This document shows, in pieces, positions 46,506 to 50,551 of a stretch of DNA of 64,000 nucleotides. The translations under genes and the position numbers were made by a program. The DNA lies in the NCBI RefSeq assembly GCF_988242995.1, contig NZ_OZ547043.1. One strand, given 5' to 3'. Position 1 is the stretch's first letter; each line of letters begins with the position of its first letter. The notes beneath the pieces were generated by a model, which had not been told where the DNA came from, did not search any database, and saw only the letters and a list, made by a program, of their open reading frames with translations.

Positions 46506-47720
46506 ATGAAATTTGAACGCCATCATGAAATATTGAAACGACTCAGTAAATTCGGTTCTGTAAAAGTATCCGATCTGTCCAATAGCCTCAATGTAACGAA
46601 AGAAACTATTCGTTCAGATCTTAATGAACTTGCCAGGCTTGGCTATCTGACTCGATGTCATGGCGGTGCTTTTATCGTCCTAGACTCGCTTGATACTATT
46701 GCGAAAAATGAAATCGCTTATGCGCTTGAAAATTATGATACAGCCCAGGGAATAAAAAAAGGCCACTCAACTATGAAAAGTCAAGTATGCGTTATTGGTT
46801 CGTTTAATGTTGATATCATCAGTTATTTGCCGAGGCTTCCCACTATCGGAGAATCGCTTCTGGCAAGTAATTTTATATTTTCACCGGGGGGAAAAGACTG
46901 TAACCAGGCGCTGGCAGCAAGCTTTGCCGATACTGATGTTTATTTCATAACAAAAGTAGGTACAGATCACTTTAGTGATTATGCGATCAACTTTATGAAT
47001 TCGTCTAAGATTTATAAAAGTATAATTTATCAAACGAAAGAAACGCAAACCGAAACTGCCACGATCCTTGTTAATGAAGGTACTGGCGATAATGTTATTG
47101 CGATCTATCCCGGTGCCAACATGACAATGTCGCCCGATGAAATAACTATTCAGAAAGAAGCGATTATTAATTCTGATGTCATACTTCTGCAGCTCGAAAC
47201 AAATTATACCGCTCTGCAACAAGCGATCACATTGGCGCAAAAAAACAGTATCCCGGTCATTATTAACCCGGCACCCTATAATGATATCGTCAACGAACTT
47301 ATTCAGGATGTTGATTATATCACCCCCAATGAAACAGAAGCTGGTTTACTGTCCGGCATAGACGTACACGATCTTGAATCAGCTAAACGAGCTGCAGAAG
47401 CTATCCACAATAAAGGGGTAAAAAACACGGTTATCACGCTCGGTAGCAAGGGCTCGCTCGCATTTGATGGCAAAAAATTCATTCATTCGCCAGCGTTTCC
47501 AGCGGTCGTTAAAAATACGGCAGGAGCCGGGGATGCGTTTAACGGCTCTCTGGCATCAGGACTTGCGAAAGGAAAATCACTGGAATCAGCACTGTGTTAT
47601 GCCAGCGCCTTTGCATCCCTAGCGGTGGAGACAAGCAATGCTTCCGACATGCCTGAACATGAATCTGTGATACATCGAATTCAGAGTATACATTATCAGC
47701 AAACTATTTTTACGCATTAA
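46506..47720 (+). CDS. Fusion protein: N-terminal DeoR-type HTH plus PfkB/ribokinase-family sugar kinase
   Basis: HTH region SVKVSDLSNSLNVTKETIRSDLNELARLGYLTRCHGGA followed by ribokinase motifs (VIGSFNVD, NPAP, ITPNETEA, GAGDAFNG). Confidence 0.8.
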   Translation: MKFERHHEILKRLSKFGSVKVSDLSNSLNVTKETIRSDLNELARLGYLTRCHGGAFIVLDSLDTIAKNEIAYALENYDTAQGIKKGHSTMKSQVCVIGSFNVDIISYLPRLPTIGESLLASNFIFSPGGKDCNQALAASFADTDVYFITKVGTDHFSDYAINFMNSSKIYKSIIYQTKETQTETATILVNEGTGDNVIAIYPGANMTMSPDEITIQKEAIINSDVILLQLETNYTALQQAITLAQKNSIPVIINPAPYNDIVNELIQDVDYITPNETEAGLLSGIDVHDLESAKRAAEAIHNKGVKNTVITLGSKGSLAFDGKKFIHSPAFPAVVKNTAGAGDAFNGSLASGLAKGKSLESALCYASAFASLAVETSNASDMPEHESVIHRIQSIHYQQTIFTH

Positions 47721-47733
47721 GAAGGGACAGAGA

Positions 47734-48492
47734 ATGAATAACACCAAAAAATCACTAAAAGTGCTCTTTATTGGGGAATCCTGGCATATTCATATGATTC
47801 ATTCAAAAGGATATGACAGTTTTACCTCAAGTAAATATGAAGAAGGTGCGACCTGGTTACTCCAGTGTCTGAAAAATAGTCAGGTAGATGTCACCTATAT
47901 GCCAGCACATACGGTACAAATTGCCTTCCCTGAAGATGTGGCACAGTTAGAACAATATGATGCCATCGTTATTAGTGATATTGGTAGTAATACTTTCCTG
48001 CTACAAAATGATACTTTTTATCAGCTTCGCATAAAACCAAACGCTCTCGAACTGATTAAAGAATATGTGAATAACGGTGGTGGGTTATTGATGATTGGCG
48101 GCTATCTCTCATTCATGGGAATTGAAGCAAAAGCCAATTATAAAAATACAGTTCTGGCTGATGTGCTCCCGGTTACGATGTTAGATGGTGACGATCGTGT
48201 CGAAAAACCAGAGGGTGTTATTGCACAGCCATCACAACCTGAACATCCAGTTATTAAAGGGTTCTCTGAATATCCTTTTTTCCTAGGTTATAACCGGGCG
48301 ATCGCTAAAGAAAATGCTGAGGTGGTATTAACAATAAACAACGCTCCATTACTGGTCTTTGGTAACTATCACAACGGGAAAATAGCCTGCTTTATGAGTG
48401 ACTGTTCACCGCACTGGGGTACACAGCAGTTTATGTCCTGGCCGTTCTATACCGCGTTGTGGGTAAATATACTGACTCATATTGCAAGATAA
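47734..48492 (+). CDS. Hypothetical cytoplasmic protein, possibly class-I glutamine-amidotransferase-like fold
   Basis: 252-aa ORF 14 bp after the kinase gene; segment YDAIVISDIGSN...NGGGLLMIGG resembles GATase1/ThuA-like folds (weak inference). Confidence 0.55.
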   Translation: MNNTKKSLKVLFIGESWHIHMIHSKGYDSFTSSKYEEGATWLLQCLKNSQVDVTYMPAHTVQIAFPEDVAQLEQYDAIVISDIGSNTFLLQNDTFYQLRIKPNALELIKEYVNNGGGLLMIGGYLSFMGIEAKANYKNTVLADVLPVTMLDGDDRVEKPEGVIAQPSQPEHPVIKGFSEYPFFLGYNRAIAKENAEVVLTINNAPLLVFGNYHNGKIACFMSDCSPHWGTQQFMSWPFYTALWVNILTHIAR

Positions 48493-48548
48493 TAATAATA
48501 ATGGGGTAACTCCAGTTACTCCATTTACTATAATAGAAGGATTGATGT

Positions 48549-49514
48549 ATGAAAAAGAATAAGTACTCAACTCCCTTATGGATGCTTGCCACGATTCTTG
48601 CGGGTATGCTCTCCCCTATGCAATCAGCGGTGAATGGTCAATTAGGTCACTGGTTACAGGATGGTAATGCATGCGCAGTTATCTCCTTTGCCAGTGGTTT
48701 AGTCGTGATGTTTTTTATTATTATGGCGCGAAAAGAAACCCGGCAACAATTTGCGGCAATTCCTTCTCTGATTAAAAACCGAAAAGTTCCTCTCTGGAAC
48801 TGGTTTGCCGGTCTCTGTGGAGCGATGGTGGTATTTTCTGAAGGCGCATCAGCCAGCGCACTCGGGGTCGCAACGTTTCAAACCGCACTGATCTCCGCGC
48901 TATTGCTGTCTGGTTTACTTTGCGATCGCTTTGGTATCGGTGTCGACGAGAAAAAATACTTTACCCCTTATCGCATCATCGGTGCATTATTTGCGGTTAT
49001 TGCTACGATTTTTGTTGTGTCACCTCAGTGGCATTCTACCTCTTTCATCTTACTTGCCATTCTTCCGTTCTTAGCTGGTTTGCTTGCAGGATGGCAGCCC
49101 GCTGGAAATGCAAAAGTAGCTGAAGCTACGGGATCCATGCTGGTTTCAATCACCTAGAATTTCATCGTTGGATTTTGTGTTTTAGGCACAGCGCTAGCTA
49201 TTCGTGTCGCATTAGGGCACGTCACTGTTCAATTACCAGATGTCTGGTGGATGTATCTTGGCGGCCCGCTTGGACTAATGTCTATCGGTTTAATGGCCAT
49301 TTTGGTCAGAGGTCTGGGGTTACTGATGCTGGGGGTTGCTTCAACGGCGGGCCAGTTACTGGGATCAGTATTGATTGACGTATTAATTCCATCGCTGGGC
49401 AATAGCGTTTATCTGGTCACGATCATCGGAACACTGTTTGCACTGGTCGGTGCAATTGTTACCACTATTCCGGAATACAGAACCTCGAAAACAATGAAGA
49501 AAATGGAGGTATAA
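48549..49514 (+). pseudogene. DUF606/YdcZ-type (DMT superfamily) membrane transporter gene interrupted by a single in-frame TAG
   Basis: ORFs 48549-49157 and 49251-49514 are in the same frame; reading through the TAG at 49158-49160 gives one continuous ~320-aa 10-TM protein. Confidence 0.75.
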
Positions 49515-49516
49515 TC

Positions 49517-50551
49517 ATGAAAGATTATCTACAAACTGTGACGGGCCCCGTCGCCCGTGAAGATATGGGGCTAACACTTCCTCATGAACATCTGTTCAAC
49601 GATCTTTCCTCTGTTGTGGATGCTCCTTGCTATCCTTTTTCACAACGGCTTGTTGATAAAAAAGTCACGGCAGAAATCCAGTGGGCATTAAAACACGATC
49701 CTTATTGCTGCGCTGATAATATGGACCGCAAACCTATTGAAGATGTGATCTTCGAAATTAATAACTTTATCTCGCTCGGTGGTCGCACCATTGTTGATGC
49801 CACAGGGTCTGAGTCTATCGGACGAGATGCGCAGGCATTACGAGAAGTCGCATTAAAAACAGGTCTGAATATTGTTGCTTCCTCCGGTCCCTACCTGGAA
49901 AAATTTGAAAGCCAGAGAATTCATAAAACGGTTGATGAACTGGCGACAACGATCGATAAAGAATTGAATCAAGGGATTGGCGATACGGATATTCGTGCCG
50001 GAATGATCGGTGAAATAGGTGTTTCACCGACATTTACCGAAGCCGAGCATAACAGCTTGCGGGCTGCCTCGCTGGCACAGATTAACAATCCTCATGTGGC
50101 GATGAATATTCACATGCCGGGCTGGCTTCGTCGCGGTGATGAAGTACTCGACATTGTGTTAGGTGAAATGGGCGTCTCGCCAAATAAAGTCTCTCTCGCA
50201 CACTCGGATCCGTCAGGAAAAGACGTGGCGTATCAGCGGAAAATGCTTGATAAAGGTGTCTGGCTGGAATTCGACATGATTGGCCTAGACATTACCTTCC
50301 CGAAAGAGGGAATAGCGCCAGGGGTGCAGGAGACTGCCGATGCCGTCGCTCATCTCATTGAGTTGGGTTACGCCGATCAGCTTGTTCTCAGCCACGATGT
50401 CTTCCTTAAACAAATGTGGGCTAAAAATGGCGGTAATGGCTGGGGATTTGTTCCAGATGTTTTTCTGGCCTATCTGGCGGAGCGCGGCGTCGATAAAACG
50501 ATCCTCAAAAAACTCTGTATCGATAATCCCGGACGATTATTGACCGCATAA
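49517..50551 (+). CDS. Phosphotriesterase-family (PTE/Php-like) metal-dependent hydrolase
   Basis: 344-aa ORF with GLTLPHEHLF (HxH), IGEIG and SHD motifs of the PTE TIM-barrel amidohydrolases. Confidence 0.8.
   Translation: MKDYLQTVTGPVAREDMGLTLPHEHLFNDLSSVVDAPCYPFSQRLVDKKVTAEIQWALKHDPYCCADNMDRKPIEDVIFEINNFISLGGRTIVDATGSESIGRDAQALREVALKTGLNIVASSGPYLEKFESQRIHKTVDELATTIDKELNQGIGDTDIRAGMIGEIGVSPTFTEAEHNSLRAASLAQINNPHVAMNIHMPGWLRRGDEVLDIVLGEMGVSPNKVSLAHSDPSGKDVAYQRKMLDKGVWLEFDMIGLDITFPKEGIAPGVQETADAVAHLIELGYADQLVLSHDVFLKQMWAKNGGNGWGFVPDVFLAYLAERGVDKTILKKLCIDNPGRLLTA

What the first reader, a model, noticed from the sequence alone, without database searches (positions are those of the whole stretch)
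46506..50551. Compact 4-gene plus-strand cluster: DeoR-HTH/ribokinase fusion, amidotransferase-like protein, DUF606 transporter, phosphotriesterase-like hydrolase
Four co-directional genes with 13-56 bp spacing lie between an IS66 fragment and a displaced ggt fragment, so this is an acquired cassette. The first gene fuses a DeoR-type DNA-binding domain directly to a complete ribokinase-family kinase, an uncommon one-polypeptide regulator/kinase layout. It is followed by a transporter and a lactonase/phosphotriesterase-type hydrolase. The combination suggests an uncharacterised uptake-hydrolysis-phosphorylation route for a sugar, lactone or nucleoside-like compound, possibly self-regulated by the fusion protein.
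Basis: partly seen in the sequence, partly recalled or inferred. Interest (0 to 1): 0.6.

Follow-up and report, generated by a model that had tools for sequence, protein, structure and literature searches.

The report
Decaying E. coli rikA operon copy
This is the E. coli copy of the recently described Salmonella rikA (STM3547-STM3550) four-gene cluster, a probable breakdown route for an unidentified ribose-containing compound; it was captured by insertion sequences, and in this strain its transporter gene is broken by a stop codon.

Summary
The four co-directional genes are real. They are the Escherichia ortholog of Salmonella STM3547-STM3550: rikA (DeoR-HTH fused to a ribokinase), a GATase1_like protein, a DMT_YdcZ/DUF606 transporter and a PTE-family hydrolase.

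Much of this is already published. RikA was shown to be a ribose kinase in 2026, and that paper lists Escherichia among the carriers. The GATase1_like protein (2GK3) and the hydrolase ortholog Pmi1525 (3RHG) have solved structures. The physiological substrate is unknown.

The fusion is not an artefact. It recurs in at least 13 species and about 20 clusters at 50% identity, with the HTH under purifying selection and a conserved ribosome-binding site before Met1.

This copy is an IS-flanked cassette that carries a ggt fragment. It is decaying: the transporter has W203* (TAG, in 610 of about 2,040 carrier genomes), and RikA and the GATase1_like protein have substitutions at near-invariant residues.

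Across 75 loci, GATase1_like pairs with a ribokinase-like gene in 64. It also pairs with either a PTE or an M20 deacylase, rarely both. This suggests deacylation, ribose release and phosphorylation of a ribose conjugate. That pathway is inferred, not shown.

The parts
46412..46431 (+). Conserved T-rich tandem motif TTTTTGCTTTTTTTTGCTTT. It is a candidate operator for the DeoR-type HTH of RikA. It also marks the left edge of homology with the Salmonella locus.
   Evidence: The motif is present with 0-2 mismatches at the same position upstream of rikA in all enterobacterial orthologs. Providencia and Proteus carry a second copy 31 bp upstream. It occurs once in the 64 kb window, against 0.02 expected by chance. 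Homology to Salmonella starts at 46412. Binding has not been tested.
46444..46459 (+). Conserved TATGG-N6-TCACA element, resembling a CRP site. Possible site of catabolite control.
   Evidence: TCACA is invariant in 13 of 13 orthologs, and TATGR lies 6 nt upstream of it. The resemblance to the CRP consensus is from my own knowledge and was not tested.
46496..46500 (+). Shine-Dalgarno sequence GAGGT serving Met1 of the full-length HTH-RikA.
   Evidence: GAGGT lies 5-9 nt before the ATG in 13 of 13 orthologs.
46506..47720 (+). rikA, the ortholog of STM3547. It encodes a DeoR winged HTH (residues 1-58), a flexible linker (59-89) and a ribokinase domain (90-404, catalytic Asp343). This allele carries G131D and G183E at near-invariant glycines.
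   Evidence: Pfam. NCBIfam ribokinase model, 276 bits against a cut-off of 299.65. All RbsK ribose-binding residues are conserved. Predicted structure. PGAP names the gene rikA. Allele analysis.
47734..48492 (+). GATase1_like (PF07090) protein, the ortholog of STM3548 (PDB 2GK3). It is probably an enzyme of unknown reaction. This allele carries D204A at a near-invariant Asp.
48549..49514 (+). DMT_YdcZ (DUF606) transporter gene with two repeats, the ortholog of STM3549. Here it is a pseudogene because of W203* (TGG to TAG at 49155-49157).
   Evidence: The TAG allele is in 610 E. coli genomes and the TGG allele in 1430.
49517..50551 (+). PTE-family binuclear-metal hydrolase of the PTER/Pmi1525 subgroup, the ortholog of STM3550. 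It is intact.
   Evidence: Pfam. Match to 3RHG/4QSF (Pmi1525) at E 3e-174. End-to-end alignment with 3K2G and with PTER structure 9EFA, including the residue 30-75 insertion.
50559..50585 (.). G+C-rich hairpin of 12 pairs between the convergent hydrolase gene and the ggt remnant. Probably a shared terminator.
50591..50883 (-). 3' fragment of a ggt gene, a remnant of the ancestral cluster-ggt adjacency.
   Evidence: RefSeq annotation. It is 80-82% identical to the ggt that is convergent with the cluster in Salmonella and Citrobacter, and about 92% identical to the native E. coli ggt.
44752..46189 (-). ISEc45 (IS110 family), complete, inserted into the IS66 remnant. It is not part of the operon but defines the left flank in this strain.
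   Evidence: NCBIfam transpos_IS110, 280 bits. RefSeq annotation. Insertion boundaries from comparison with a strain that lacks it.
46203..46310 (+). C-terminal remnant of an IS66-family transposase gene (the other piece is at 44526-44744). It forms the left boundary of the cassette in all E. coli copies examined.
50963..52582 (-). ISL3-family transposase pseudogene, forming the right boundary of the cassette.

Best explanation
Identity (well supported). This is the Escherichia copy of the rikA-STM3548-STM3549-STM3550 operon of Salmonella and relatives. It was cut out of an ancestral site next to ggt in an Escherichia-like genome. It now travels as an IS66-remnant / operon / ggt-remnant / ISL3-remnant block inside E. 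coli genomic islands.

How the intact operon most likely works (inferred):
1. The DMT_YdcZ permease imports a ribose-containing conjugate, that is, a riboside or nucleoside-like compound carrying an acyl, ester or ureido group.
2. The PTER/Pmi1525-type metal hydrolase removes the acyl or ester group.
3. The GATase1_like protein carries out the step that frees ribose.
4. RikA phosphorylates ribose to ribose 5-phosphate. This last step is shown experimentally for the Salmonella enzyme.

Regulation (inferred). The full-length protein carries a genuine DeoR winged HTH. It probably auto-regulates the operon through the conserved T-rich repeat at 46412-46431, with the kinase domain acting as the ligand sensor. 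This resembles one-polypeptide enzyme-repressors such as NadR or BirA.

State in this window. The pathway is most likely non-functional or failing. The transporter is truncated at Trp203. RikA has G131D in the GGKG substrate loop (found in only 5 of 5,426 genomes) and G183E. The GATase1_like protein has D204A.
For: Orthology:
- The gene order is the same, with protein identities of 81-95% to Salmonella and Citrobacter and 66-84% to Proteus and Providencia.
- PGAP names the gene rikA.
- The rikA paper lists Escherichia among the carriers.

Kinase:
- Salmonella RikA supports growth on ribose from its chromosomal copy. Its Km for ribose is 2.0 mM and D343A abolishes activity.
- All polar ribose ligands of E. 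coli RbsK (N14, D16, G41, G42, K43, N46, E143, D255) are conserved.

The fusion is real:
- HTH residues 1-60 show pN 0.10-0.30 against pS 0.42-0.79, the same pN as the kinase domain.
- A GAGGT ribosome-binding site precedes Met1 in 13 of 13 orthologs. Proteus has no in-frame start codon at position 90.
- About 20 clusters at 50% identity have the full-length architecture.
- The model shows a confident winged HTH and kinase joined by a disordered linker.

Candidate operator.

Pathway logic:
- Of 75 GATase1_like loci from different species, 64 have a ribokinase-like PfkB gene within 8 kb.
- 25 have a PTE only, 34 have an M20 deacylase or carbamoylase only, and 5 have both.
- Six of the other 11 have a cytidine deaminase or a proline-iminopeptidase-type hydrolase; the remaining five lack such a partner, and at least two of these run off a contig end or have a frameshifted PTE.
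- Transporters vary between RbsB-type ABC, NupC nucleoside and DMT types.

Hydrolase: the closest characterised relatives are Pmi1525, a carboxylate and methylphosphonate esterase in vitro (cited in PMC5341072), and PTER, an N-acetyltaurine amidohydrolase (PMC11374699).

Decay. Other E. coli copies carry other lesions.

Capture.
Against: - No substrate has been identified for the operon, the GATase1_like protein or the transporter. The order of steps is a guess.
- RikA's kcat/Km for ribose is about 50-fold below that of RbsK, and the authors consider ribose a possible side activity.
- In Salmonella, only a roughly 35 kDa product consistent with a start at Met90 was recovered from a plasmid carrying the native ribosome-binding site. 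The long HTH form has therefore not been seen.
- The T-rich motif could be an UP-like promoter element rather than an operator.
- Pfam labels DMT_YdcZ a putative exporter.
- The window-lineage count of 6-7 nonsynonymous against 6 synonymous changes is too small to prove relaxed selection. The G131D, G183E and D204A changes have not been tested for effect.
Confidence: 0.6

Rival explanations
1. Kinase-first phospho-lactone route. RikA phosphorylates a furanose-like sugar lactone or other non-ribose sugar, and the PTE-family enzyme then hydrolyses the phosphorylated lactone. This would parallel the COG1735 phospho-sugar lactonases Lmo2620 and MS53_0025. Ribose phosphorylation would be a side activity.
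For: There is a weak NCBIfam match to phospho-furanose lactonase (E 5e-11, 42 bits against a cut-off of 630). RikA's catalytic efficiency on ribose is low, and the authors raise a moonlighting activity. The existence of phospho-lactonases within this family is from my own knowledge.
Against: The hydrolase is far closer to Pmi1525 (E 3e-174), Rsp3690 and PTER, which act on esters and amides, and it shares their insertion. PTE alternates with M20 deacylases and carbamoylases across loci, which points to amide or ester cleavage rather than lactone opening. Every polar ribose ligand of RbsK is retained.
Confidence: 0.12
2. The HTH is not part of the working protein. RikA is simply a third ribokinase translated from Met90, and the upstream 89 codons are an untranslated or vestigial extension. 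There would be no self-regulation.
For: Only a roughly 35 kDa tagged product was recovered in Salmonella, and RikA 90-404 supports growth on ribose.
Against: Codons 1-60 evolve under the same constraint as the kinase domain. The ribosome-binding site before Met1 is invariant, while Met90 is replaced by GTG in Providencia and by non-start codons in Proteus. The architecture persists down to 32-35% identity. The disordered linker at residues 59-89 offers a proteolytic explanation for the 35 kDa species.
Confidence: 0.1
3. Export or detoxification module. The DMT_YdcZ protein exports a product made or modified by the three enzymes, rather than importing a nutrient.
For: Pfam describes the family as a putative inner membrane exporter.
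Against: In other phyla the same enzyme core sits with uptake systems: RbsB-type binding-protein ABC transporters, NupC, an APC permease, and LacI or AraC catabolic regulators. A kinase that yields ribose 5-phosphate fits catabolism.
Confidence: 0.05

Closest known systems
Salmonella Typhimurium rikA (STM3547)-STM3548-STM3549-STM3550 locus (McCormick, Jabbar and Escalante-Semerena, Mol Microbiol 2026, PMC13432705)
   Same: The four genes, their order and their domain architecture are the same. The catalytic Asp343 is present. The cluster lies next to ggt (a remnant here). Proteins are 81-95% identical to the S. enterica subsp. diarizonae orthologs.
   Different: In E. coli the cluster is not at the native ggt site. 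It lies inside IS-bounded islands at variable sites. This copy has a nonsense codon in the transporter and rare substitutions in RikA and the GATase1_like protein.
Pmi1525 of Proteus mirabilis (PDB 3RHG, 4QSF; Xiang et al. Biochemistry 2015, as cited in PMC5341072)
   Same: It is the ortholog of the fourth gene, matching at E 3e-174 along the full length, with identical metal-ligand motifs (HxH, IGEIG, NIHMPGW, LAHSD, LSHD). The orthologous gene heads the same four-gene context in P. mirabilis (L018).
   Different: Only promiscuous ester and methylphosphonate-ester hydrolysis is known for Pmi1525. The details of that paper are from my memory, because the paper is not held in the library. Its native substrate is unknown.
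Eukaryotic PTER (N-acetyltaurine amidohydrolase; PDB 9EFA)
   Same: It belongs to the same PTE subgroup, with the helical insertion after the first strand, and aligns end to end (E 1e-36).
   Different: Sequence identity is low. No evidence shows that the bacterial enzyme acts on N-acetyltaurine.
E. coli ribokinase RbsK (PDB 1RKD, 1GQT)
   Same: The PfkB fold is shared (E 4.5e-51). All polar ribose ligands and the catalytic Asp are conserved, and ribose kinase activity has been shown for Salmonella RikA.
   Different: RikA has an added N-terminal DeoR HTH and a 30-residue linker. Its kcat/Km is about 50-fold lower. It scores below the NCBIfam ribokinase cut-off (276 against 299.65 bits).
DeoR-family repressors (for example AgaR, GlpR, DeoR) and enzyme-repressor fusions (NadR, BirA)
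   Same: The N-terminal HTH_DeoR domain is shared. The candidate operator is a T-rich repeat, which from memory resembles the AgaR operator. The logic of an enzyme domain serving as ligand sensor is also shared.
   Different: The usual DeoR C-terminal sugar-phosphate-binding domain is replaced by a complete kinase. DNA binding is unproven.
ThuA-like proteins and PF07090 structures 2GK3, 3SOZ and 3RHT

Membership tests
rikA / STM3547-STM3550 operon | Gene order HTH-PfkB, GATase1_like, DMT_YdcZ, PTE on one strand | tested here: met
   The same order is found in Citrobacter, Salmonella, Budvicia, Klebsiella spallanzanii, Providencia and Proteus.
rikA / STM3547-STM3550 operon | Adjacency to ggt, convergent with it | tested here: met
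   Only a 293 bp ggt 3' remnant survives here. It aligns with the ggt adjacent to the cluster in Salmonella and Citrobacter.
rikA / STM3547-STM3550 operon | Ribose kinase activity of the first gene product | not testable with these tools
   Activity was shown for the Salmonella protein only. The window allele carries G131D and G183E.
PfkB ribokinase | Ribose ligands (N14, D16, G41, G42, K43, N46, E143) and the catalytic Asp in the GAGD motif | tested here: met
   Alignment to 1GQT/1RKD. The Gly after the conserved Lys (GGKG) is Asp in this allele.
PfkB ribokinase | Score above the NCBIfam equivalog cut-off (TIGR02152, 299.65 bits) | tested here: not met
   The score is 276.3 bits. The protein is ribokinase-like but falls outside the curated equivalog.
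DeoR-family transcription regulator | N-terminal HTH_DeoR domain | tested here: met
   PF08220 at E 5e-15, residues 5-56. The winged HTH is modelled at pLDDT 78-94.
DeoR-family transcription regulator | C-terminal DeoR_C effector-binding domain | tested here: not met
   Residues 92-382 are a PfkB kinase instead.
DeoR-family transcription regulator | Sequence-specific DNA binding and repression | not testable with these tools
   Only a conserved candidate site is available.
Class I glutamine amidotransferase | Cys nucleophile after the central strand, with a His-Glu pair | tested here: not met
PTE family / amidohydrolase superfamily | Binuclear-metal ligands: HxH, a bridging carboxylate, two His and an Asp | tested here: met
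   H23-x-H25, E165 (IGEIG), H198, H228 and D293 are identical to those of Pmi1525.
PTER/Pmi1525 subgroup of PTE | Helical insertion of about 40 residues after the first strand | tested here: met
   Alignment to 3RHG, 3K2G and 9EFA is end to end. Classical PTEs align only from residue 77-85 onwards. The insertion is described in PMC12873775.
DMT_YdcZ (DUF606) transporter | Two PF04657 repeats in one uninterrupted polypeptide | tested here: not met
   An intact E. coli allele has both repeats. The window copy stops at codon 203, within the second repeat.

The most novel reading that the evidence does not exclude
The PF07090 GATase1_like protein may be a new kind of enzyme that frees ribose, or ribose 5-phosphate, from an N-linked conjugate. 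On this reading the four genes would form a salvage route for an acylated or ring-modified nucleoside, with N4-acetylcytidine, dihydrouridine or ribosyl-ureides as guesses. The PTER-type hydrolase would do the deacylation or ring opening. Full-length HTH-RikA would act as a one-polypeptide sensor-repressor on the conserved T-rich operator. This would revise the published conclusion that RikA starts at Met90.
Probability: 0.2. Interest if true: 0.65.

Novelty: already known. Interest (0 to 1): 0.3.

Why it matters
Taken at face value, the finding re-discovers a locus that entered the literature in 2026, and this copy is damaged. Its value is as a pointer in four directions.

1. About 37% of complete E. 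coli genomes carry the operon. Both intact and naturally null alleles exist (1,430 with TGG and 610 with TAG), which gives a ready-made genetic contrast for finding the substrate.

2. Comparative data argue that the DeoR HTH is functional. This conflicts with the only experimental statement on it.

3. The GATase1_like protein is 59-83% identical from Enterobacterales to Bacillales, and its link to a ribokinase is equally conserved. This marks an unassigned enzyme family that has solved structures but no known chemistry.

4. The bacterial relatives of mammalian PTER still have no physiological substrate.

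Tried and rejected
- NCBIfam gave no hit for the GATase1_like protein or either transporter half.
- An Rfam scan of 44900-51300 found nothing, so no riboswitch or leader RNA is known here.
- Literature searches for STM3548, STM3549, STM3550, PF07090, DUF1355 and Pmi1525 returned only the rikA paper, a Pfam database paper and one citing paper. The two Raushel-laboratory papers on Rsp3690 and Pmi1525 are not held, so their details rest on my memory and on the citation in PMC5341072.
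- The sigma-70 consensus scan found no convincing promoter immediately upstream of rikA, and overall hits were at or below chance. I therefore name no -35 or -10 elements.
- I considered that the ggt fragment came from Salmonella together with the operon. I rejected this because it is about 92% identical to E. coli ggt but only about 81% identical to Salmonella and Citrobacter ggt. An Escherichia-lineage source is more likely.
- I considered a sequencing-error fusion and rejected it.
- I considered a true glutamine amidotransferase and rejected it on the missing nucleophile and the fold distances.
- The test for relaxed selection in the window lineage (6-7 nonsynonymous against 6 synonymous changes) is suggestive only.
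- The GTDB representative genomes returned no Escherichia locus among the best 80, so the donor lineage could not be named.

Full report
**Observation**

The window is E. coli chromosome next to cobUST. Four + strand ORFs lie at 46506-47720, 47734-48492, 48549-49514 and 49517-50551, separated by gaps of 13, 56 and 2 bp.

Pfam assigns the following domains:
- HTH_DeoR (residues 5-56) plus PfkB (92-382) to the first ORF.
- GATase1_like PF07090 (E 1e-111) to the second.
- Two DMT_YdcZ (former DUF606) repeats to an intact allele of the third.
- PTE PF02126 to the fourth.

The third ORF is interrupted in frame by TAG at 49155-49157.

On the left lies an IS66 remnant, split by a complete IS110-family ISEc45 at 44752-46189. 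On the right lie a G+C-rich hairpin (50559-50585), a 293 bp ggt 3' remnant (50591-50883, - strand) and an ISL3 pseudogene. G+C is 39-47% in the cluster and about 52% in the cob genes.

**What it is**

RefSeq genomes annotate the first gene as rikA. A 2026 paper (PMC13432705) shows that Salmonella STM3547 (RikA) is a ribose kinase:
- The chromosomal gene alone supports growth on ribose.
- Km for ribose is 2.0 mM and kcat/Km is about 50-fold below that of RbsK.
- D343A is inactive, and other pentoses are poor substrates.

The paper also notes that STM3547-STM3550 are conserved in Citrobacter, Escherichia, Budvicia and Proteus. It states that the physiological substrate is unknown and that ribose may be a side activity.

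The other proteins also have known relatives:
- The fourth protein matches Pmi1525 of Proteus mirabilis (PDB 3RHG, 4QSF) at E 3e-174. Pmi1525 is cited as a metal-dependent esterase.
- The second protein matches STM3548 (2GK3, E 7e-145) and its paralog STM1381 (3SOZ).

A scan of one genome per species recovered the same four-gene order in Citrobacter, Salmonella, Budvicia, Klebsiella spallanzanii, Providencia and Proteus. The cluster is thus a known, partly characterised locus.

**The fusion**

Five lines of evidence support a single polypeptide:
- The 402-406 aa fused ORF recurs in every ortholog.
- About 20 clusters at 50% identity in a 1.8-billion-protein library match from residue 1-5 to about 395. 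An alignment down to 32% identity keeps the DeoR signature.
- Between E. coli and eight orthologs, codons 1-60 show pN 0.10-0.30 against pS 0.42-0.79. This is the same non-synonymous rate as in the kinase domain.
- A GAGGT ribosome-binding site precedes Met1 in 13 of 13 species. The Met90 codon, which the paper proposes as the real start, is GTG in Providencia and a non-start codon in Proteus.
- The AlphaFold model has a confident winged HTH (residues 1-58), a disordered linker (59-89, pLDDT about 40) and a confident kinase domain.

The roughly 35 kDa species seen in Salmonella could arise from internal initiation or from cleavage in that linker. I cannot tell which.

**Candidate control region**

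Homology with the Salmonella locus begins at 46412. That is exactly the start of a motif, TTTTTGCTTTTTTTTGCTTT, which is conserved with 0-2 mismatches upstream of rikA from E. coli to Proteus. Providencia and Proteus have a second copy 31 bp upstream. The motif is unique in the window.

A conserved TATGR-N6-TCACA element follows at 46444-46459. The paralogous HTH-PfkB genes have different repeats. I read the T-rich repeat as the likely operator of the HTH and the second element as a possible CRP site. Both readings are inferences.

**Origin and state of this copy**

The transporter gene is present in 2,007-2,123 of 5,426 complete E. coli genomes. The block of IS66 remnant, operon, ggt remnant, ISL3 remnant and zinc-ribbon genes sits next to cobU here, but next to aspA or yaiO in other strains. 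It is therefore mobile as part of larger islands.

The ggt remnant is 80-82% identical to the ggt that lies convergent with the cluster in Salmonella and Citrobacter, but about 92% identical to native E. coli ggt. This suggests capture from an Escherichia-lineage genome that had the ancestral arrangement.

The stop codon replaces a Trp (TGG) that is invariant in ten orthologs of a very conserved protein (79-95% identity). Diagnostic 55-mers find the TAG allele in 610 genomes and the TGG allele in 1,430.

Relative to intact E. coli alleles and outgroups, the window lineage also carries derived changes:
- RikA G183E and A348S.
- GATase1_like D204A.
- Transporter T286S.

In addition, RikA G131D lies in the GGKG loop and is found in only 5 genomes, against 1,899 with Gly.

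Other strains carry different lesions: rikA Q81*, frameshifts and an IS3 insertion. Strains with all four genes intact also exist. The count of 6-7 nonsynonymous against 6 synonymous lineage-specific changes hints at relaxed constraint but is too small to prove it.

**Likely mechanism**

RikA keeps every polar ribose ligand of RbsK. This favours free ribose, or something very close to it, as the kinase substrate.

The GATase1_like protein is unusually conserved, at 59-83% identity between Enterobacterales, Succinivibrionaceae and Bacillales, with an invariant SDCxPHW motif. Among 75 non-redundant loci:
- 64 have a ribokinase-like PfkB gene within 8 kb.
- 25 have a PTE only, 34 have an M20 enzyme only, and 5 have both.
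- Of the other 11, six have a cytidine deaminase or a proline-iminopeptidase-type hydrolase. The other five lack such a partner, and at least two of them run off a contig end or have a frameshifted PTE.

The M20 enzymes are ArgE/DapE deacylases and hydantoinase/carbamoylase-type amidases. In Paenibacillus a protein resembling ureidoglycolate lyase sits beside them. Transporters vary: RbsB-type ABC systems, NupC nucleoside permeases, an APC permease, or DMT_YdcZ. One Salmonella plasmid carries HTH-PfkB, NupC, GATase1_like and cytidine deaminase together.

The window hydrolase belongs to the PTER/Pmi1525 subgroup. It aligns end to end with PTER structure 9EFA, including the insertion that classical phosphotriesterases lack. 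The only physiological activity known in this subgroup is N-acyl amide hydrolysis, by PTER (PMC11374699).

Taken together, the near-exclusive alternation of PTE with M20 deacylases, the nucleoside-type partners and a real ribokinase point to one scheme. A ribose conjugate is imported, an acyl, ester or ureido group is removed, ribose is released by the GATase1_like protein, and ribose is phosphorylated. Only the last step is shown experimentally.

The GATase1_like protein is not a conventional amidotransferase. The position after the central strand holds an invariant Tyr rather than Cys. Its nearest folds, apart from its own family, are ThuA-like proteins and the middle domains of GH42 enzymes. 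True amidotransferases are more distant.

**Rivals**

- A kinase-first phospho-lactone route is supported only by a 42-bit match to a phospho-furanose lactonase model and by the modest ribose kinetics.
- The view that the HTH is vestigial rests on the 35 kDa product and conflicts with the conservation data.
- An export role rests only on the Pfam family label.

**Verdict**

The open points of some interest are:
- whether the HTH is functional, where my comparative data disagree with the published start-site inference;
- the conserved operator-like repeat;
- the unknown chemistry of the GATase1_like family and of the bacterial PTER-like hydrolases.

Noticed in passing
window 44752-46189 (- strand): A complete IS110-family element (ISEc45; NCBIfam 'IS110 family RNA-guided transposase') is inserted in the IS66 remnant. 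It has 59 nt before and about 245 nt after the transposase gene. No Rfam family matched, so any guide or bridge RNA it encodes was not identified. Seven bases are shared at the two junctions with the uninterrupted sequence of strain PC-NDM34.
   Followed up: partly
L005 5508-9200 (Salmonella enterica contig carrying IncFII repA and a Tn3-type transposase): A paralogous cluster is present here: HTH_DeoR-PfkB fusion (410 aa, about 45-49% identical to RikA), a NupC-type nucleoside transporter, GATase1_like (65% identical) and cytidine deaminase. Serratia proteamaculans (L053) has NupC, GATase1_like and the deaminase without the kinase.
   Followed up: partly
L046 8775-13000, and L034, L035, L040: A second chromosomal paralog occurs in Salmonella diarizonae and Citrobacter: HTH-PfkB (408-430 aa), GATase1_like (probably STM1381, PDB 3SOZ), a proline-iminopeptidase-family hydrolase and an APC permease. 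It has its own upstream repeat (TTCCGGTTT-like), different from the rikA motif.
   Followed up: partly
window 47734-48492; model m3b61470c3c23: The most conserved stretches of the GATase1_like protein (residues 18-31, 92-95, 124-133) are the least confidently modelled, at pLDDT below 50. They may form an active site or an oligomer interface that a monomer model cannot place.
   Followed up: no
window 52866-54530 (- strand): Two overlapping zinc-ribbon protein genes and an 'inovirus Gp2 family' gene follow the ISL3 pseudogene. The same genes accompany the cassette in every E. coli copy examined, whatever the chromosomal site, so the cassette is part of a larger conserved island.
   Followed up: no
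window 43161-43501 (- strand): According to the RefSeq annotation of identical sequence, a cobalamin-biosynthesis gene fragment and an IS4-family fragment lie between cobU and the IS66 remnant. This marks the island's junction with the core genome.
   Followed up: no
L029, L031, L039, L042 (Succinivibrionaceae): These loci have GATase1_like, DMT_YdcZ and PTE in the same order, but with a divergent AraC-family regulator upstream and an unfused PfkB kinase downstream. Where the HTH is not fused to the kinase, a separate regulator is present.
   Followed up: partly
window 48549-49514 compared with orthologs: The transporter is the most conserved of the four proteins (93-95% identical to Salmonella and Citrobacter, 79-84% to Proteus and Succinivibrionaceae). 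The enzymes are 55-88% identical. This is unusual for a membrane permease.
   Followed up: no
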